DNA of 64,000 bases. It comes from Escherichia phage YUEEL01. A program made the translations under genes and the position numbers. The stretch lies in sequence record NC_054935.2, one strand, 5' to 3'. Below, in pieces: positions 2,604 through 46,184 of this stretch. Each line of letters begins with the position of its first letter. Position 1 is the stretch's first letter. The notes under the pieces were generated by a model that had not been told where the DNA came from, made no database searches, and was given only the letters and a program-made list of their open reading frames with translations.

Positions 2604-3825
<1,222 letters not shown>

Positions 3826-7476: not shown

Positions 7477-7653
7477 ATGGCAAAACAAGCTAAAGCAAAG
7501 AAAGCAGTTGAAAAGAAAGTTGGTGATTCTAAACGCGCTGGCTACAAGCGTGGGTCGAACTCTCGTATCAATCAAACTGTTGAGAAGATCATGCGCCGAG
7601 CACGTGCGGTTCTTCGAGATGATGCTTCTCGTTTTGGTAAGCAGAAAGCATAA
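7477..7653 (+). CDS. small highly basic protein (58 aa)
   Basis: Track ORF 7435..7653; ATG at 7477 gives MAKQAKAKKAVEKK..., Lys/Arg-rich; strong terminator directly downstream. Confidence 0.55.
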   Translation: MAKQAKAKKAVEKKVGDSKRAGYKRGSNSRINQTVEKIMRRARAVLRDDASRFGKQKA

Positions 7654-7658
7654 GTTGA

Positions 7659-7685
7659 GGACTCCTTCGGGAGTCCTTTTTTATT
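7659..7685 (+). terminator. intrinsic terminator
   Basis: GGACTCC-TTCG-GGAGTCC hairpin followed by TTTTTTATTTT, 6 nt after stop of ORF 7477..7653. Confidence 0.8.
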
Positions 7686-7763: not shown

Positions 7764-8096
7764 ATGAAAACGATTAATCTGAACGCTGCAGTTAAAACTA
7801 AATGCTTCAATGGTAAATATGATGAAACTATGTGGTTCTTAATGGCAGTTGAAGGTGATATTATTGAAGTAGAAACAACAGAAGGTATGGGAACAGATTT
7901 CACCTTTACAATTCAAGTTCATAATTTCTTTACTGGTTGGATTTATGAATTGAATACAGTAATCGTTGGAAAAATTGAACAAAATGAATTAGGTGAATGG
8001 TATTATGTTACAGCTCGCCAACGTGCCGAACGCTTAATTGAGAAGATGAAAAAAGTTGGTAAACTTGACATGCAGCATTGGAAAGTAGTAAAATAA
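7764..8096 (+). CDS. hypothetical protein (110 aa)
   Basis: ATG ORF with AAGGAG SD and its own early promoter. Confidence 0.6.
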   Translation: MKTINLNAAVKTKCFNGKYDETMWFLMAVEGDIIEVETTEGMGTDFTFTIQVHNFFTGWIYELNTVIVGKIEQNELGEWYYVTARQRAERLIEKMKKVGKLDMQHWKVVK

Positions 8097-8098
8097 TT

Positions 8099-8127
8099 GT
8101 TTACTTTGGTACAGGATATGATATTAT
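8099..8127 (+). promoter_or_regulatory. T4-type early promoter
   Basis: GTTTAC 8099-8104, 17-bp spacer, TATTAT 8122-8127; precedes ORF 8165. Confidence 0.55.
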
Positions 8128-8164
8128 ATACCTGTACCGCAATTAAACATCTTGGAGAATAAAA

Positions 8165-8530
8165 ATGAACTACATCAACTTTGAACGTAAATATGTTTCT
8201 AATGGTATTGCAGGTTCTATTGATACTATTTGCCTTTGGAAACATCAAAATGGATCAGTATGCGAAATTGAGCAGTATATGACTCCTAATTACGTTTATA
8301 TGCGATTTGAAAACGGTATCACGGTTTCAATCACGATGGAAGGTTCCAACTTTAAAATCGCTCTGGATGATGATTTCCGTGAACGCGATTTAGGGACTCA
8401 TCCTTGCTGGAATGGCGTTAATCGCAAGCTTTTGGTTAAAACTTGGATTCGTCATATTCTGAGTAACAGAGCTAAACCTGAGCATCTTGAAGCAATCTTT
8501 GATGTAGTTCTTAACGAATTTGATATTTAA
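8165..8530 (+). CDS. hypothetical protein (121 aa)
   Basis: ATG ORF with GGAG SD and its own early promoter. Confidence 0.6.
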   Translation: MNYINFERKYVSNGIAGSIDTICLWKHQNGSVCEIEQYMTPNYVYMRFENGITVSITMEGSNFKIALDDDFRERDLGTHPCWNGVNRKLLVKTWIRHILSNRAKPEHLEAIFDVVLNEFDI

Positions 8531-8538
8531 AATAAATG

Positions 8539-8554
8539 AGGGGCTTTGGCCCCT
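8539..8554 (+). promoter_or_regulatory. GC-stem hairpin between ORFs (attenuator/processing structure?)
   Basis: AGGGGC-TTTG-GCCCCT; no following U-tract; lies just upstream of SD of ORF 8571. Confidence 0.4.
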
Positions 8555-8570
8555 TACTGAGGAAAATGTT

Positions 8571-8858
8571 ATGTTTATGACTACTTATTTTGATACCCGT
8601 AAAAACTTCTGCGAAGTAGTTTTCTCAAAGGCGCCTAAAGACCTTCCTGCACATTTGCAACCTACTAGCGAATCGATTAAAAACTACGTTGATGTGGTTT
8701 GTCCTTTAGAGTTTCGTACTGTAAATGGGCGCGATACTTTAGCTATCACTAAACTCAATCGTGAAATTGACATTGACCCTTCAATTGCACGTGAAATTAA
8801 TAGTTCTGATATTAATGGCGGTAATGTTAAATCGCACGGTTTTCAGATGAGGTTTTAA
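8571..8858 (+). CDS. hypothetical protein (95 aa)
   Basis: Track ORF begins at TTG 8520; ATG at 8571 with GAGGA SD preferred; hairpin lies between previous stop and this start. Confidence 0.5.
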   Translation: MFMTTYFDTRKNFCEVVFSKAPKDLPAHLQPTSESIKNYVDVVCPLEFRTVNGRDTLAITKLNREIDIDPSIAREINSSDINGGNVKSHGFQMRF

Positions 8859-9055
8859 TGAAATTCTTTTTAGGTCAAACTGTTGAATTAAAGGGAGTTG
8901 GTATACCTGGATTAATTTCTAAGGTTCTACCTTCGTTTAAATGGAGTGGTATTCAAATAAAAGAGGCTTATATTGTTTCTTGGGTAGATGGAAATGAAGA
9001 CCTTCGTATGGGCGATGAATTATCTCCTATCTACGGATTAAAGGAATTAGTATGA
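8858..9055 (+). CDS. hypothetical protein (65 aa)
   Basis: ATG ORF, overlapping stop/start with neighbours. Confidence 0.5.
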   Translation: MKFFLGQTVELKGVGIPGLISKVLPSFKWSGIQIKEAYIVSWVDGNEDLRMGDELSPIYGLKELV

Positions 9056-9258
9056 ATATAATTAATAAGATTTTTGGAATTCAGTACATTAAGGTCACAT
9101 ATAAAGTAACAGATAAAAATCCGTATACTGATGAACACGAAGAACCGCAAGTTAAGTCTATTATATTAGAAAAAGGCAGTGACTGGCCAGTTGAATTTCG
9201 TCTACCAAACTGTGGTCATTGGGCTGATGTTGAAATTATAAGCATTGAAAATGTCTGA
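9052..9258 (+). CDS. hypothetical protein (68 aa)
   Basis: ATG ORF, 4-bp overlap with upstream gene. Confidence 0.5.
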   Translation: MNIINKIFGIQYIKVTYKVTDKNPYTDEHEEPQVKSIILEKGSDWPVEFRLPNCGHWADVEIISIENV

Positions 9259-9709
9259 GTTAGAGATTAGAAGCAATTTTAGGTGGCCATCATGCGCATT
9301 AAGTAATTTCGCCCAATGGCCTTTCGTTATGGATGGCATTCAATTTGGAGGTCTTGAAGGATTCCTCCAAGGGTGCAAGGTGAAAAATGTTGAACAACAA
9401 CGTCGTATATTTGGGTTATCCGGGCTTGCCGCCCAACAAGCTGGAAGGTCTTATGCTAGAGCTCAGGACCGTGGGACCCTCTTCTGGCTTGGAGTTCCGT
9501 TTTCAAGATACTCCCCAGCCTGGAAAGAATTATACACAAATGCGTATTTTGAAGCAGCGCTTCAAAACAGAGGCTTTCGCGATGCATTACAAGCCTCGAA
9601 AGGAAAAGTTTTGAAGCACAGCATGGCTAGTGGTCTAACAAAAGATGATACAATACTAACCGAAGCTGAATTTATTGATGTGTTAAACCTATTAAGAGAC
9701 TCTCTATGA
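9251..9709 (+). CDS. NADAR / YbiA-like (DUF1768) domain protein
   Basis: Motif ALSNFAQWPFVMDGIQF resembles the FSNFxxWP...DG core of E. coli YbiA/NADAR; ATG at 9251 (track starts TTG 9245); locally GC-rich; corresponds by position to T4 30.3. Confidence 0.7.
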   Translation: MSELEIRSNFRWPSCALSNFAQWPFVMDGIQFGGLEGFLQGCKVKNVEQQRRIFGLSGLAAQQAGRSYARAQDRGTLFWLGVPFSRYSPAWKELYTNAYFEAALQNRGFRDALQASKGKVLKHSMASGLTKDDTILTEAEFIDVLNLLRDSL

Positions 9710-10560
9710 AGCCTACTATTTTAACTGATATTGATGGAGTATGTTTAAGCTGGCAATCAGGCCTTCCTTATTTTGCTCAGAAATATAATCTTCCGTTAGA
9801 ACATATTTTAAAAATGATCCAGGATGAGAAATTTATTTCTCCTGGTAAACTATTTAATTGCGATGAAGAACTTGGCGTTAAGCTAATTGAAAAATACAAT
9901 CGTTCGGATTTTATTCGATACTTGTCTCCATATAAAGATGCCCTATGTGTAATTAACAAATTAAAAGAAGATTATAATTTTGTAGCTGTTACAGCATTGG
10001 GTGATTCTATTGACGCTCTGCTGAATCGTCAATTTAATTTGAATGCTCTTTTTCCTGGTGCCTTCTCAGAAGTACTGATGTGTGGTCATGATTCTTCAAA
10101 AGAAGAGTTGTTCAAAAAGGCAAAAGAAAAATATAACGTAATTTGTTATATTGACGATCTCGCTCACCACTGCGATCACGCAAGTGAAATATTAAATGTT
10201 CCTGTTTATTGGATGGCTCGAGGGGAACGTGACAGTATTCCAAAAACTGCACAGCGAGTTTATACATGGAATGATGTAGAGAATAAGCTTTTTCCATCGA
10301 AGGAAAATAAAGAAAGTTTTGATAGTGAAAAAGTTATAAAAGATGTAATTGAGAAGATGATTAAAAACGATTCTTTTCGTTGGAACACTACTTGGAGAAC
10401 TCCTGGATTTAATCCTTATAATCCATATCATCCATATTATACACACTCGCATCAGATGCATCCATTCCATACGTGGAGTTATATTAAGCCTGGCGACGCA
10501 GGGTATTTTAATAGACTTACTAGTGGTAGTGGTGATAATATTTTCCAAGGAGCATTCTAA
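9706..10560 (+). CDS. HAD-superfamily phosphatase-like protein with His/Tyr/Pro-rich C-terminal tail
   Basis: N-terminal ILTDIDGV = HAD motif I (DxDxV); 284 aa; C-terminal PGFNPYNPYHPYYTHSHQMHPFH segment. Confidence 0.65.
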   Translation: MKPTILTDIDGVCLSWQSGLPYFAQKYNLPLEHILKMIQDEKFISPGKLFNCDEELGVKLIEKYNRSDFIRYLSPYKDALCVINKLKEDYNFVAVTALGDSIDALLNRQFNLNALFPGAFSEVLMCGHDSSKEELFKKAKEKYNVICYIDDLAHHCDHASEILNVPVYWMARGERDSIPKTAQRVYTWNDVENKLFPSKENKESFDSEKVIKDVIEKMIKNDSFRWNTTWRTPGFNPYNPYHPYYTHSHQMHPFHTWSYIKPGDAGYFNRLTSGSGDNIFQGAF

Positions 10561-10829
10561 TGTTTGTTGTTCACACTATTTATGAAAATGAAGGTAATAC
10601 TACACGTGATTACGGTCACGTAAATCAATTTTTTAGATGCAATCCAGAATTCCGAGCTCAAAAAGACGAACGAATTTTTAAAAAATGTGTAGAGCAAGGT
10701 TTCATTTACGTCAAGCACTGGATGCAAGGAAATAAAGTTAGAACCACGTACCACAGGTCTTTGACTGAGCTTAATGATGAATTGATTTATAATAGAGCTG
10801 TAAACCAAACTCTAAAGGATGAACAATGA
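10560..10829 (+). CDS. hypothetical protein (89 aa)
   Basis: ATG ORF directly upstream of DNA ligase, overlapping stop/start. Confidence 0.55.
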   Translation: MFVVHTIYENEGNTTRDYGHVNQFFRCNPEFRAQKDERIFKKCVEQGFIYVKHWMQGNKVRTTYHRSLTELNDELIYNRAVNQTLKDEQ

Positions 10830-12289
10830 TTCTTAAAATTCTGAACGAAATAGCATCTATTGGTTCAACTAAGCAGAAGCAAGCAATTCTTGAAAAGAAT
10901 AAAGATAATGAATTGCTTAAACGAGTATATCGTCTGACTTATTCTCGTGGGTTACAGTATTATATCAAGAAATGGCCTAAACCGGGTATTGCTACCCAGA
11001 GTTTTGGAATGTTGACTCTTACCGATATGCTTGACTTCATTGAATTCACGTTAGCTACTCGGAAATTGACTGGAAATGCGGCAATTGAGGAATTAACTGG
11101 ATATATTACTGACGGTAAAAAAGATGATGTTGAAGTTTTGCGTCGGGTGATGATGCGAGACCTTGAATGCGGTGCTTCAGTATCTATTGCAAACAAAGTT
11201 TGGCCAGGTTTAATTCCTGAACAACCTCAAATGCTTGCAAGTTCTTATGATGAAAAAGGCATTAATAAGAATATCAAATTTCCAGCCTTTGCCCAGTTAA
11301 AAGCTGATGGAGCTCGGTGTTTTGCTGAAGTTAGAGGTGATGAATTAGATGATGTTCGTCTTTTATCACGAGCTGGTAATGAATATCTAGGATTAGATCT
11401 TCTTAAGGAAGAGTTAATCAAAATGACTGCAGAAGCTCGCCAGATTCATCCAGAAGGTGTGTTAATTGATGGCGAATTGGTATACCATGAGCAAGTTGAA
11501 AAGGAGCCAGAAGGCCTAGATTTTCTTTTTGATGCTTATCCTGAAATTAGTAAAGCTAAAGAATTCGCCGAAGTAGCTGAATCACGTACTGCATCTAATG
11601 GCATCGCCAATAAATCTTTAAAGGGAACCATTTCTGAAAAAGAAGCTCAATGCATGAAGTTTCAGGTCTGGGATTATGTCCCGTTGGTAGAAATATACGG
11701 TCTTCCTGCATTTCGTTTGAAATATGATGTACGTTTTTCTAAACTAGAACAAATGACATCAGGTTATGATAAAGTAATTTTAATTGAAAACCAGGTAGTA
11801 AATAACCTAGATGAAGCTAAGGTAATTTATAAAAAGTATATTGACCAAGGTCTTGAAGGTATTATTCTCAAAAATACCGATGGATTGTGGGAAAATGCTC
11901 GTTCAAAAAATCTCTATAAATTTAAAGAAGTAATTGATGTTGATTTAAAAATTGTAGGAATTTATCCTCACCGTAAAGACCCTACTAAAGCGGGTGGATT
12001 TATTCTTGAATCAGAGTGTGGAAAAATTAAGGTAAATGCTGGTTCAGGCTTAAAAGATAAAGCCGGTGTAAAATCGCATGAACTTGACCGTACTCGCATT
12101 ATGGAAAACCAAAATTATTATATTGGAAAAATTCTAGAGTGCGAATGCAACGGTTGGTTAAAATCTGATGGCCGCACTGATTACGTTAAATTATTTCTTC
12201 CGATTGTGATTCGTTTACGTGAAGATAAAACTAAAGCTAATACATTCGAGGATGTATTTGGTGATTTTCATGAGGTAACTGGTTTATGA
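10826..12289 (+). CDS. 30: ATP-dependent DNA ligase
   Basis: 487 aa MILKILNEIASIGSTKQKQAILEKNKDNELLKRVYRL... matches T4 DNA ligase; adenylation lysine context AQLKADGARC. Confidence 0.95.
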   Translation: MILKILNEIASIGSTKQKQAILEKNKDNELLKRVYRLTYSRGLQYYIKKWPKPGIATQSFGMLTLTDMLDFIEFTLATRKLTGNAAIEELTGYITDGKKDDVEVLRRVMMRDLECGASVSIANKVWPGLIPEQPQMLASSYDEKGINKNIKFPAFAQLKADGARCFAEVRGDELDDVRLLSRAGNEYLGLDLLKEELIKMTAEARQIHPEGVLIDGELVYHEQVEKEPEGLDFLFDAYPEISKAKEFAEVAESRTASNGIANKSLKGTISEKEAQCMKFQVWDYVPLVEIYGLPAFRLKYDVRFSKLEQMTSGYDKVILIENQVVNNLDEAKVIYKKYIDQGLEGIILKNTDGLWENARSKNLYKFKEVIDVDLKIVGIYPHRKDPTKAGGFILESECGKIKVNAGSGLKDKAGVKSHELDRTRIMENQNYYIGKILECECNGWLKSDGRTDYVKLFLPIVIRLREDKTKANTFEDVFGDFHEVTGL

Positions 12290-12474
12290 AAGCTTACTTA
12301 GAAACAATTGTCGTGGCTCAAAAAGAAGGTGGAGATGTTTCTACTTCTGTATCACAAGTCATTCTCGAATTTGTAGATGCATACGCTTATAATAAATTTA
12401 CAGAAACATTTGATGCCTATGAAAAAGGACCAAAGTTTGAAATATATCGTACTCTCTTACCACTAGATTACTAA
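12286..12474 (+). CDS. hypothetical protein (62 aa)
   Basis: Small ORF overlapping ligase stop, followed by hairpin terminator. Confidence 0.5.
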   Translation: MKAYLETIVVAQKEGGDVSTSVSQVILEFVDAYAYNKFTETFDAYEKGPKFEIYRTLLPLDY

Positions 12475-12492
12475 AGGCCTTCGGGCCTTTAA
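12473..12492 (+). terminator. intrinsic terminator upstream of alt late promoter
   Basis: AAAGGCC-TTCG-GGCCTTT hairpin followed by AATTTT. Confidence 0.65.

Positions 12493-43673: not shown

Positions 43674-46184
<2,511 letters not shown>

What the first reader, a model, noticed from the sequence alone, without database searches (positions are those of the whole stretch)
9706..10560. HAD-like phosphatase with unusual His/Tyr/Pro-rich C-terminal tail, coupled to the NADAR gene
The ORF starts with a canonical HAD motif I (ILTDIDGV) and overlaps the NADAR gene stop by 4 bp, implying co-expression. Its last ~60 residues (PGFNPYNPYHPYYTHSHQMHPFHTWSYIKPGD) are low-complexity, aromatic/His-rich and unlike the catalytic core, perhaps a metal-binding or interaction tail. 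Together with the upstream NADAR this could process ADP-ribose or nucleotide phosphates.
Basis: partly seen in the sequence, partly recalled or inferred. Interest (0 to 1): 0.4.

Follow-up and report, generated by a model that had tools for sequence, protein, structure and literature searches.

The report
T4 gene 30.2: nucleotidase-like HAD phosphatase
This is the T4-type phage gene 30.2: an uncharacterised but apparently intact phosphatase, most like the enzymes that strip phosphate from DNA building blocks, with a floppy fast-evolving tail. It sits next to the anti-defence gene adfN, but published transposon data show it is not needed for adfN to work.

Summary
The ORF is real. It runs 9706-10560 on the + strand, encodes 284 aa, and is the orthologue of phage T4 gene 30.2, which T4 annotates as a hypothetical protein. 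The window is a Tequatrovirus.

All four HAD motifs are present: D8/D10, T96, K132 and D150/D151. The AlphaFold model is confident for residues 1-200 and shows a HAD fold with a helical C1 cap.

The nearest characterised family is NT5C, the 5'(3')-deoxyribonucleotidases. This protein falls below Pfam's NT5C threshold, so it belongs to a separate phage family, phrog_420.

The tail is not a frameshift artefact. It is predicted disordered and evolves 5-10 times faster than the core. It is absent from about 40% of homologues. Across the family it is rich in Pro and Trp, not His. The His run here comes partly from a lineage-specific 15-nt insertion.

The 4-bp overlap with the NADAR gene (30.3/adfN) is real, but the functional link is not supported:
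- NADAR is nearby in only 35 of 71 related loci, against 69 of 71 for DNA ligase.
- In published T4 transposon sequencing under DarTG1, 30.2 insertions are neutral (log2FC -0.12) while adfN insertions are lost (-7.25).

This is an ordinary, uncharacterised phage enzyme of modest interest.

The parts
9706..10560 (+). CDS of the T4 gene 30.2 orthologue (284 aa, stop included)
   Evidence: ORF listing. 92% identical to T4 gp30.2, in the same gene order 30.3-30.2-30.1-30-alt.1-alt. phrog_420 at E 2.5e-90.
9706..10296 (+). HAD catalytic domain, residues 1-197
9718..9741 (+). HAD motif I, ILTDIDGV (nucleophile D8, general acid/base D10)
   Evidence: D8, D10 and G11 are invariant in 52 homologues. 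D8 and D10 are invariant in the broad 51-sequence family alignment.
9742..9969 (+). C1-type helical cap inserted after motif I (residues about 13-88), including W16-Q17-S18-G19-L20 and Y64-N65-x-S67-x-F69
   Evidence: Model helices at 16-26, 32-40, 46-49, 54-65, 68-72 and 77-86. This stretch aligns to the cdN/NT5C cap: DGVLvkWqSGL against DGVLADFESGL, and YnsSdFiryL against YESPGFFLNL.
9982..9999 (+). HAD motif II, VAVTAL (T96)
   Evidence: T96 is conserved in at least 90% of sequences.
10027..10029 (+). R108, a basic residue invariant across the family, 12 residues after motif II
   Evidence: Invariant in both alignments. hhalign places it opposite the conserved Lys of the NT5C 'EK' motif. 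An active-site role is inferred, not shown.
10099..10101 (+). HAD motif III, K132
   Evidence: Invariant.
10153..10158 (+). HAD motif IV, D150-D151 (YIDDL)
   Evidence: At least 90% conserved in A1. D151 is invariant in the broad family.
10297..10557 (+). C-terminal extension, residues 198-284: a linker, an amphipathic helix (207-220), then a disordered Pro/aromatic-rich tail (228-284)
   Evidence: pLDDT is below 50 for 228-231 and 241-284; helix at 207-220. pN/pS is 0.28-0.32 against 0.03-0.06 in the core. A tail of 40 aa or more is present in 58 of 100 homologues.
10393..10407 (+). WRTPG, the first conserved island of the tail (W-[KR]-x-P type)
   Evidence: A similar motif lies 21-65 residues into the tail in 31 of 58 tails (shuffle mean 3.8). 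The pattern was defined after seeing the data.
10436..10452 (+). Lineage-specific in-frame 15-nt insertion (about YTHSH) that adds two of the tail's His residues
   Evidence: DNA alignment to T4 and protein alignment. The exact boundaries are ambiguous by 2 nt.
10501..10521 (+). GYFNRLT, a degraded copy of the second tail island (EYLxRQPT type; T4 has EYLYNRPT)
   Evidence: The motif lies 14-18 residues from the C-terminus in 17 of the 57 homologue tails (shuffle mean 0.03; post hoc pattern). The window's own copy, 19 residues from the end, brings the count to 18 of 58.
9251..9709 (+). Upstream neighbour 30.3/adfN (NADAR DNA ADP-ribosylglycohydrolase); its stop overlaps the 30.2 ATG (ATGA at 9706-9709)
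   Evidence: Pfam Phage_30_3 at E 8.8e-70. 98% identical to T4 gp30.3. Function from PMC11825919.
10560..10829 (+). Downstream neighbour 30.1 (DUF3045); its start overlaps the 30.2 stop by 1 nt
   Evidence: Pfam DUF3045 at E 2.9e-64; sequence.
10826..12289 (+). DNA ligase gene 30, the most consistently linked neighbour of 30.2 homologues
   Evidence: Pfam DNA_ligase_A_M. Ligase lies within the fetched locus in 69 of 71 related loci.
8065..12491 (+). Probable transcription unit 30.7 to alt.1, running from a promoter-like site (8065-8094, 11 of 12 matches) to a terminator-like hairpin (12472-12491)
   Evidence: Consensus scan only, and site counts in the region do not exceed shuffles. Genes are tightly packed or overlapping. 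T4 30.2, 30.1, 30 and alt.1 share the expression class 'early RNA, middle protein'.

Best explanation
The ORF is the orthologue of phage T4 gene 30.2. It belongs to a family found almost only in T4-like phages (phrog_420).

Residues 1-197 form a Mg2+-dependent HAD-superfamily phosphomonoesterase with a closed helical C1 cap. Inferred mechanism, from HAD chemistry:
- D8 attacks the substrate phosphate to give an aspartyl-phosphate intermediate.
- D10 acts as general acid and base.
- T96 and K132, and probably R108, hold the phosphate.
- D150 and D151 hold the metal.

The cap and the residues just after motif I resemble those that clamp the nucleoside in 5'(3')-deoxyribonucleotidases (NT5C: cdN, mdN). 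The most likely substrates are therefore (deoxy)nucleoside monophosphates, with a role in shaping nucleotide pools during early to middle infection.

Residues 198-284 are a lineage-variable extension: one amphipathic helix followed by a disordered Pro/Trp/aromatic-rich tail. The tail keeps two short motif islands and probably serves as a docking element rather than a metal site.

The gene is co-transcribed and translationally coupled with adfN, 30.1 and DNA ligase, but it does not depend on AdfN, and AdfN does not depend on it.

What is shown: the fold, the motifs, the family relationships, how the tail evolves, the gene linkage, and the dispensability. What is inferred: the substrate class, the role of R108, and the docking role of the tail.
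For: Identity:
- 92% identical to T4 gp30.2, in the same gene order.

Catalytic residues:
- D8, D10, G11 and K132 are invariant, and T96, D150 and D151 are at least 90% conserved, in 52 homologues.
- D8, D10, R108, K132 and D151 are invariant down to 22% identity.

Fold:
- AlphaFold2 block-mean pLDDT is 92-98 for residues 1-190 and 85 for 191-200, with helices 16-86 inserted between motifs I and II.

Nearest characterised family is NT5C, by four routes:
- The best PDB sequence hit for the family profile is cdN 2jao, E 0.031. The alignment pairs DGVLvkWqSGL with DGVLADFESGL.
- Pfam NT5C is the most frequent specific family among sub-threshold hits: 11 of 52 members, best E 1.2e-4.
- The Foldseek PDB top hit is 2jao at E 2.3e-8. 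NT5C entries have the best target TM-scores, 0.61-0.70.
- hhalign of the broad family against an NT5C alignment gives probability 96.6% and E 5e-10 over 175 columns, with all four motifs in register.
- Named viral structural neighbours are mostly '5' nucleotidase'.

Tail:
- Disordered.
- Differs from T4 only by in-frame indels.
- pN/pS 0.28-0.32 against 0.03-0.06 in the core.
- Pro 11.1% against 4.3%, Trp 3.5% against 1.3%, His 1.6% against 2.4% (tails against cores), plus two recurring islands.

Expression and dispensability in T4:
- Expression class 'early RNA, middle protein'.
- Non-essential, with 72 of 72 TA sites hit.
- Neutral under DarTG1, DarTG2 and in minimal medium.
Against: - No biochemical data exist for any family member. 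Literature searches found none.
- The window protein itself does not reach Pfam's NT5C threshold, or even E<=1.
- The spacing between motifs III and IV is 18 residues here, against 10 in NT5C.
- The second half of the domain also gives weak hits to PNK-type 3'-phosphatase models.
- No fitness phenotype has been seen that would confirm a role in nucleotide pools. LB against M9 gives log2FC -0.10.
- I could not inspect model coordinates, so the positions of R108, R172 and W16 relative to the active site are not verified.
Confidence: 0.55

Rival explanations
1. gp30.2 would work downstream of the NADAR enzyme AdfN, dephosphorylating ADP-ribose-derived or related phosphates released when ADP-ribosylated DNA is repaired. 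The tail would bind metal or AdfN.
For: - 4-bp ATGA overlap with adfN.
- The same arrangement is seen in T4 and in 13 related loci.
- The AdfN paper suggests that full AdfN activity may need another T-even protein.
Against: - NADAR is detectable within about 6 kb in only 35 of 71 loci that carry a 30.2 homologue. Detection used tblastn with a single query, so very divergent NADARs could be missed.
- Tails of 40 aa or more co-occur with NADAR in 8 loci but occur without it in 20. Twenty-seven NADAR-bearing loci have tail-less homologues.
- T4 transposon sequencing under DarTG1: 30.3 log2FC -7.25, 30.2 log2FC -0.12 with p 0.61 over 71 TA sites. A 30.2 insertion cannot be polar on the upstream adfN, so this is a clean test.
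- ADP-ribose has no phosphomonoester.
- His is not enriched in homologues' tails.
Confidence: 0.05
2. gp30.2 would be an end-healing enzyme for DNA ligase. It would remove 3'-phosphates, or similar blocking groups, from nicks so that gp30 can seal them. This would be a second activity like the PNK phosphatase.
For: - Ligase is near the 30.2 homologue in 69 of 71 loci, although the surrounding small genes vary.
- Proximity survives a change of gene order: ligase lies upstream in L077, L079, L080 and L081.
- Weak similarity to PNK-phosphatase models: Pfam HAD_PNKP E 0.17; phrog_415 E 0.0039 for the window protein and 3.8e-5 for P0230. The window's own PseT hits phrog_420 at E 4e-4.
- One relative is fused to a domain that PHROGs labels 'DNA polymerase'.
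- 30.2 shares its expression class with gene 30.
Against: - The protein has a full C1 helical cap. By established HAD knowledge, such caps enclose small substrates, and enzymes acting on polynucleotide ends are capless.
- hhalign against the window's own PseT gives only 9% probability, limited to motif I.
- PNKP entries do not rank among the top PDB structural matches.
- The phage already carries PseT at 2917-3825.
- T4-like genomes are strongly syntenic, so adjacency could simply be inherited.
- Ligase is essential in T4 but 30.2 is fully dispensable.
Confidence: 0.12
3. gp30.2 would be a HAD phosphatase for a non-nucleotide small molecule, such as a sugar phosphate, phosphoglycolate or a cofactor precursor, or for a phosphorylated immune-signalling molecule.
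For: - General HAD Pfam models match as often as NT5C.
- Source annotations of homologues disagree with each other: 'FMN phosphatase YigB', '5'(3')-deoxyribonucleotidase', 'HAD-superfamily hydrolase'.
Against: - The sequence-level similarity in the cap and specificity region is to NT5C, not to those families.
- Foldseek ranks cdN first.
- Named viral structural neighbours are mostly nucleotidases.
Confidence: 0.2
4. gp30.2 would be a catalytically dead scaffold whose real function lies in the tail.
For: The tail evolves fast and carries motif-like islands. No knockout phenotype is known.
Against: - All catalytic residues are invariant across a family that diverges to 22% identity.
- The core is under strong purifying selection.
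- About 40% of homologues have essentially no tail.
Confidence: 0.03

Closest known systems
Phage T4 gp30.2 (NP_049815, UniProt P32275), PHROG family phrog_420
   Same: Orthologue: 92% identity overall, 98% in the core. It occupies the same position between 30.3 and 30.1/30 and shows the same 4-bp overlap.
   Different: The tail differs by three in-frame indels and is 85% identical. The window copy has an extra YTHSH and a degraded EYLYNRPT motif. T4 gp30.2 itself has no assigned function.
5'(3')-deoxyribonucleotidases, Pfam NT5C PF06941 (mammalian cdN and mdN, e.g. PDB 2jao, 2i7d, 1mh9)
   Same: - Same HAD core with a C1 helical cap.
- Shared DxDGVL-x-x-aromatic-x-SGL signature after the nucleophile.
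- Shared Y-x-x-x-x-F cap helix.
- A basic residue 12-13 positions after motif II.
- All four motifs in register in the profile-profile alignment.
   Different: - Below the Pfam threshold.
- Only 14-18% identity in the Foldseek alignments.
- 18 rather than 10 residues between motif III Lys and motif IV DD.
- Family-specific WQSGLPYF and NRxxNLxxxFP motifs.
- A C-terminal extension of up to about 145 residues in many members.
- Substrate untested.
Phosphatase domain of T4 polynucleotide kinase PseT (Pfam HAD_PNKP, phrog_415), present in this window at 2917-3825
   Same: HAD phosphatase of the same phage. There is weak reciprocal profile similarity over motifs II-IV.
   Different: By established knowledge the PseT domain is capless and acts on polynucleotide 3' ends. 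gp30.2 has a full cap. hhalign probability is only 9%.

Membership tests
HAD superfamily (phosphatase branch) | Motif I hhhDxDx[TV], with nucleophile Asp and an Asp two residues later | tested here: met
   ILTDIDGV. D8 and D10 are invariant in two alignments.
HAD superfamily (phosphatase branch) | Motif II Ser/Thr, motif III Lys, motif IV acidic pair | tested here: met
   T96 (at least 90% conserved), K132 (invariant), D150/D151 (at least 90%; D151 invariant). All are in register with NT5C in hhalign.
HAD superfamily (phosphatase branch) | Rossmann-like alpha/beta core fold | tested here: met
HAD superfamily (phosphatase branch) | Mg2+-dependent phosphoryl transfer through an aspartyl-phosphate intermediate | not testable with these tools
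   Needs an enzyme assay with wild type and D8N.
C1-capped HAD subclass | Helical cap module inserted between motif I and motif II | tested here: met
   Model helices at 16-26, 32-40, 46-49, 54-65, 68-72 and 77-86 lie between strand 4-7 and strand 91-97. The best structural matches are C1-capped enzymes.
NT5C, 5'(3')-deoxyribonucleotidase (Pfam PF06941) | Score at or above Pfam's gathering threshold | tested here: not met
   The window protein has no NT5C hit at E<=1. Eleven of 52 homologues hit at E<=1, best 1.2e-4. The one member whose NT5C score was listed, P0026, scored 12.1 bits against the 24.8-bit cut-off.
NT5C, 5'(3')-deoxyribonucleotidase (Pfam PF06941) | Full-length profile-level homology with the catalytic motifs in register | tested here: met
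   hhalign of the broad family against an NT5C alignment: probability 96.6%, E 5.3e-10, 175 columns. The NT5C alignment was small and partly built from splice isoforms.
NT5C, 5'(3')-deoxyribonucleotidase (Pfam PF06941) | Aromatic residue 8 positions after the nucleophile, and an aromatic cap residue, that sandwich the base (roles recalled from the cdN/mdN structural literature) | tested here: inconclusive
   W16 aligns with the Phe of DGVLADFESGL, and F69 aligns with the first Phe of PGFF. The geometry in the model could not be inspected.
NT5C, 5'(3')-deoxyribonucleotidase (Pfam PF06941) | Hydrolysis of 5'- and 3'-(deoxy)nucleoside monophosphates | not testable with these tools
   Needs a substrate screen.
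PNKP-type polynucleotide 3'-phosphatase (Pfam PF25109, phrog_415) | Score above threshold against the family model | tested here: not met
   HAD_PNKP scores 12.5 bits against a 27.6-bit cut-off. phrog_415 E 0.0039, against 5.7e-24 for the window's own PseT.
PNKP-type polynucleotide 3'-phosphatase (Pfam PF25109, phrog_415) | Open, capless active site able to admit a polynucleotide end | tested here: not met
   A roughly 75-residue helical cap is predicted with high confidence.
NADAR-linked ADP-ribose processing module | Conserved co-occurrence of the two genes | tested here: not met
   NADAR was detected in 35 of 71 loci, and the overlapping arrangement in 13.
NADAR-linked ADP-ribose processing module | Shared requirement under DarTG1 challenge | tested here: not met
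   Published T4 transposon sequencing: 30.3 log2FC -7.25; 30.2 log2FC -0.12 with adjusted p 1.0.
His-rich metal-binding tail | His or Cys enrichment conserved among homologues | tested here: not met
   His is 1.6% in the 58 tails (57 homologues plus the window) against 2.4% in cores. Two of the five His residues here come from a lineage-specific insertion.

The most novel reading that the evidence does not exclude
The family would not be a routine nucleotidase. It would be a ligase-linked accessory enzyme of T4-like phages that cleans up a specific phosphorylated nucleotide or a blocked DNA end. Its hypervariable Pro/Trp-rich tail, with the W[KR]xP and EYLxRQPT islands, would dock it onto a phage or host partner. 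The rapid turnover of the tail would then reflect an arms race with the host. The evidence does not exclude this: linkage to ligase holds in 69 of 71 loci and survives gene-order changes, one relative is fused to a polymerase-like domain, and the tail evolves 5-10 times faster than the core while keeping its reading frame and two motif islands.
Probability: 0.12. Interest if true: 0.55.

Novelty: new member of a known kind. Interest (0 to 1): 0.25.

Why it matters
Gene 30.2 is one of the T4 'hypothetical' genes that is kept across T4-like phages of enterobacteria, Acinetobacter, Aeromonas, Vibrio and other hosts, yet no paper in the searchable library addresses it.

Assigning it to an intact, NT5C-like capped HAD phosphatase gives a concrete and cheap hypothesis to test: a substrate screen on nucleoside monophosphates. 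If confirmed, it would add a catabolic enzyme to the well-studied T4 nucleotide-metabolism network.

The negative result is also useful. Despite its translational coupling to adfN, gp30.2 is not the 'additional T-even protein' that might be needed for AdfN's anti-DarTG1 activity.

The variable tail is a modest lead for protein-interaction work. None of this changes current understanding of phage biology.

Tried and rejected
- Literature. Four full-text searches for gene 30.2 or gp30.2 found nothing about the protein. Most '30.2' hits were numbers.
- Complex prediction. I built a paired, glycine-linked AdfN+gp30.2 alignment (16 pairs) to test for a predicted interface.
- AlphaFold database fold search. 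The library was not available.
- Bacterial genomes. The broad alignment had no stretch conserved enough to scan with. The closer alignment found one locus among 185,579 species genomes, on a 178-kb contig that looks like a T4-like phage. This search is pattern-limited, so the family looks phage-restricted only at that sensitivity.
- Defence-system models (PADLOC). No hits for gp30.2, gp30.1 or AdfN.
- NCBIfam. Nothing meaningful.
- Distant family members. Gene neighbourhoods on other phage-like contigs showed no consistent partner gene.
- Fused relative P0150. Its N-terminal domain had no PDB sequence match. It does hit a PHROG family labelled DNA polymerase.
- Yersinia phage phiR1-RT. Its long tail (P0066) is not detectably a DUF3045/gp30.1 domain.
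- Tail motifs elsewhere. A search of all six frames of the window found one other match, GYFTQLT on the minus strand near 45770, which looks like chance and was not followed up.
- Promoter and terminator scan. Site counts do not exceed shuffles, so the operon boundaries are only suggestive.
- Frameshift artefact. Rejected.
Full report
WHAT IS THERE

The window is a T4-type phage (Tequatrovirus). Window positions 9000-11000 are 100% identical to Escherichia phages ES19, ES21 and 107, and 628 phage records match this stretch.

The ORF at 9706-10560 (+) encodes 284 aa. Its neighbours are:
- upstream, a Pfam Phage_30_3 protein;
- downstream, a DUF3045 protein, then the ATP-dependent DNA ligase;
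- after the ligase, alt.1 and alt.

This is the T4 order 30.3-30.2-30.1-30-alt.1-alt. The protein is 92% identical to T4 gp30.2, which T4 annotates as a hypothetical protein.

It matches PHROG family phrog_420 ('unknown function') at E 2.5e-90 over residues 1-271. The window protein reaches no Pfam or NCBIfam threshold.

The 4-bp ATGA overlap with the upstream gene is real. So are the 1-nt overlap with 30.1 and the ATGA overlap between 30.1 and ligase. Coupling is therefore a property of the whole gene string. A promoter-like site at 8065-8094 and a terminator-like hairpin at 12472-12491 bracket the genes from 30.7 to alt.1. These are consensus matches only, and their counts do not exceed chance.

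THE CATALYTIC DOMAIN

A search of 5.8 billion proteins returned 100 homologues. A profile search of 1.84 billion cluster representatives found 1365 relatives, most of them 190-220 aa long.

In a 52-sequence alignment:
- D8, D10, G11 and K132 are invariant;
- T96, D150 and D151 are at least 90% conserved.

In a second alignment reaching 22% identity, D8, D10, R108, K132 and D151 remain invariant. These residues make up the four HAD motifs.

WHICH HAD FAMILY IS CLOSEST

Four independent routes point to the 5'(3')-deoxyribonucleotidases (NT5C):
1. The only near-significant PDB sequence hit of the family profile is mouse cdN (2jao, E 0.031). The alignment pairs DGVLvkWqSGL with DGVLADFESGL, and YnsSdFiryL with YESPGFFLNL.
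2. Scanning all 52 members against Pfam, NT5C is the only specific family hit repeatedly: 11 members, best E 1.2e-4. That is on a par with the generic HAD models.
3. Foldseek against the PDB ranks 2jao first (E 2.3e-8). NT5C structures have the best target-normalised TM-scores, 0.61-0.70.
4. hhalign of the broad family alignment against an NT5C alignment gives 96.6% probability and E 5e-10 over 175 columns. It spans the whole domain with all motifs in register. The invariant R108 lies opposite the conserved Lys of the NT5C 'EK' motif.

In addition, named viral structural neighbours are mostly annotated '5' nucleotidase'.

Caveats:
- My NT5C alignment was small and partly built from splice isoforms.
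- All HADs are homologous, so part of the hhalign signal is superfamily-level.
- The window protein does not reach the Pfam NT5C threshold.
- The spacing between motifs III and IV differs (18 against 10 residues).

I therefore treat gp30.2 as a sister family that probably works like NT5C, not as a member of it.

Weak reciprocal similarity also exists to PNK-type 3'-phosphatase models. However, hhalign against the window's own PseT (2917-3825) gives only 9% probability. The confident cap also argues for a small substrate.

THE TAIL

The tail is real coding sequence:
- Three independent genomes share it exactly.
- T4 differs only by in-frame indels of 15, 3 and 6 nt.
- pN/pS against T4-type relatives is 0.28-0.32. 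That is below 1, but 5-10 times the core value of 0.03-0.06.

Against relatives whose cores are 85% identical, the tails are only 26-27% identical.

The model shows one helix (207-220) and then disorder, with pLDDT below 50 for 228-231 and 241-284.

Among the 100 homologues, 58 have tails of 40 aa or more and 40 have tails of 26 aa or less. The 58 tails analysed are 57 homologue tails (excluding the P0014 fusion) plus the window's own. Across the family the tails are enriched in Pro (11.1% against 4.3% in cores) and Trp (3.5% against 1.3%). They are not enriched in His (1.6% against 2.4%). Two of the five His residues in the window's tail come from a 15-nt insertion (YTHSH) specific to this sub-lineage.

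Two short islands recur:
- W-[KR]-x-P, 21-65 residues into the tail, in 31 of 58 tails. Here it reads WRTPG.
- EYLxRQPT, 14-18 residues from the C-terminus in the 17 homologue copies; with the window's copy the count is 18 of 58. Here it is degraded to GYFNRLT, 19 residues from the end. T4 has EYLYNRPT.

I defined these patterns after seeing the data, so the comparison with shuffles is only indicative.

The picture is a weakly constrained, disordered extension with short linear motifs. A docking role fits that picture better than a metal site.

IS IT FUNCTIONALLY TIED TO THE NADAR GENE?

The upstream gene is adfN. It encodes a NADAR DNA ADP-ribosylglycohydrolase that defeats the DarTG1 defence system (PMC11825919). 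That paper notes that AdfN works fully only during T-even infection and may need another T-even protein. This made gp30.2 an obvious candidate, so I tested the link in three ways.

1. Co-occurrence. In 71 related viral loci with adequate flanks, DNA ligase lies near the 30.2 homologue in 69, NADAR in 35 and gp30.1 in 23. The overlapping NADAR/30.2 arrangement occurs in only 13 loci.
2. Tail against NADAR. Counts are: both present 8, tail only 20, NADAR only 27, neither 18. There is no positive association.
3. Published genetics. In T4 transposon-insertion sequencing (HIDEN-SEQ, bioRxiv 10.1101/2025.11.20.689424), gene 30.2 is non-essential, with 72 of 72 TA sites hit. The other results are below.

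| Comparison | Gene | log2FC | Note |
|---|---|---|---|
| Control vs DarTG1 | 30.3/adfN | -7.25 | insertions lost |
| Control vs DarTG1 | 30.2 | -0.12 | p 0.61, 71 TA sites |
| Control vs DarTG2 | 30.2 | 0.00 | neutral |
| LB vs M9 | 30.2 | -0.10 | neutral |

Insertions in 30.2 cannot be polar on the upstream adfN. So gp30.2 is not required for AdfN's counter-defence. The physical coupling reflects a shared early transcription unit.

In T4 omics data, 30.2 shares the class 'early RNA, middle protein' with 30.1, 30 and alt.1. Gene 30.3 is classed 'early RNA, late protein'.

THE LIGASE LINK

Proximity to ligase is the most conserved feature of the gene's context. It survives a change of order: ligase lies upstream in L077, L079, L080 and L081. 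One marine relative is fused to a domain that PHROGs labels DNA polymerase. One short metagenomic contig encodes a fusion of the HAD domain with DUF3045 (gp30.1).

These hints keep an end-healing or ligase-helper role alive as a minority reading. Against it stand the cap, the weak similarity to PNKP, the presence of PseT in the same phage, the generally strong synteny of T4-like genomes, and the full dispensability of 30.2 while ligase is essential.

VERDICT

It is partly wrong: the tail is not a metal-binding element, and there is no NADAR partnership.

The most likely function is a (deoxy)nucleoside-monophosphate phosphatase of T4-like phages, carrying a variable docking tail. This is a new, uncharacterised member of a well-known enzyme kind, found in a gene already catalogued in T4. 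Interest is modest.

Noticed in passing
window 9245-9258: The mechanical ORF list starts the NADAR gene (30.3/adfN) at TTG 9245. The T4-type start MSELEIR... is the in-frame ATG at 9251, which overlaps the stop of the upstream 30.4 ORF (ends 9258) by 8 nt.
   Followed up: partly
window 9387-9614 (+): A 75-aa ORF lies in a different frame inside adfN. It corresponds to T4's annotated 30.3' ('internal translation, in a different reading frame'), so the out-of-frame ORF is conserved in this phage too.
   Followed up: no
L086 234-1142 (protein P0014): One 1.4-kb metagenomic contig encodes a single 302-aa protein joining the gp30.2 HAD core to a DUF3045 (gp30.1) domain (Pfam E 8.3e-15). It could be a true fusion, which would hint that 30.2 and 30.1 act together, or it could be an assembly or stop-codon artefact.
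   Followed up: partly
L083 6001-7776 (protein P0150): A 591-aa protein on a 58-kb marine contig has the gp30.2-type HAD domain at its C-terminus. Its N-terminal roughly 260 residues match PHROG 24943 ('DNA polymerase', E 1.7e-34) and contain a GDLDIIIED motif like that of Pol-beta-type nucleotidyltransferases. Other relatives carry unexplained extra domains: P0205 (660 aa), P0103 (430 aa) and P0140 (365 aa, whose C-terminal end includes a GRHR motif that resembles ParB-type proteins by eye only).
   Followed up: partly
L077, L079, L080, L081: In these more distant T4-like contigs the ligase gene lies upstream of the HAD gene, two small genes away, instead of downstream. Proximity is kept although the order changed.
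   Followed up: partly
T4 genes 30.4 and 30.5 (window 9052-9258 and 8858-9055): In the published T4 DarTG1 transposon data, 30.4 is also depleted (log2FC -1.79, adjusted p 0.014). Gene 30.5 shows very uneven counts (log2FC -3.0, not significant). The likely cause is polarity on adfN, but an independent contribution was not excluded.
   Followed up: no
L013 5660-6001: In one RB69-like viral genome the NADAR match covers only the 3' part of the gene, and translating from the expected gene start hit a stop after 5 residues. This recalls the frameshifted, truncated adfN reported for RB69.
   Followed up: no
window 2917-3825 and 8-1168: The window also carries polynucleotide kinase/3'-phosphatase PseT, a second HAD phosphatase with motif FDVDGT, and RNA ligase 1 (rnlA). 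The phage therefore already has a dedicated end-healing phosphatase.
   Followed up: partly
L087 (NZ_JBHSCL010000010.1, 178,077-bp contig): The only hit among 185,579 species-representative bacterial and archaeal genomes lies on a 178-kb contig of a Flagellimonas marina assembly. Its size and its gp30.2 homologue (47% identity) suggest a co-assembled T4-like phage genome rather than a bacterial gene.
   Followed up: no
window 7657-7678 and 12472-12491 (+): Two GC-rich hairpins, each followed by a T-run, sit just after the ORF ending at 7653 and just after alt.1. They are plausible terminators bounding the 30.7-to-alt.1 unit.
   Followed up: no
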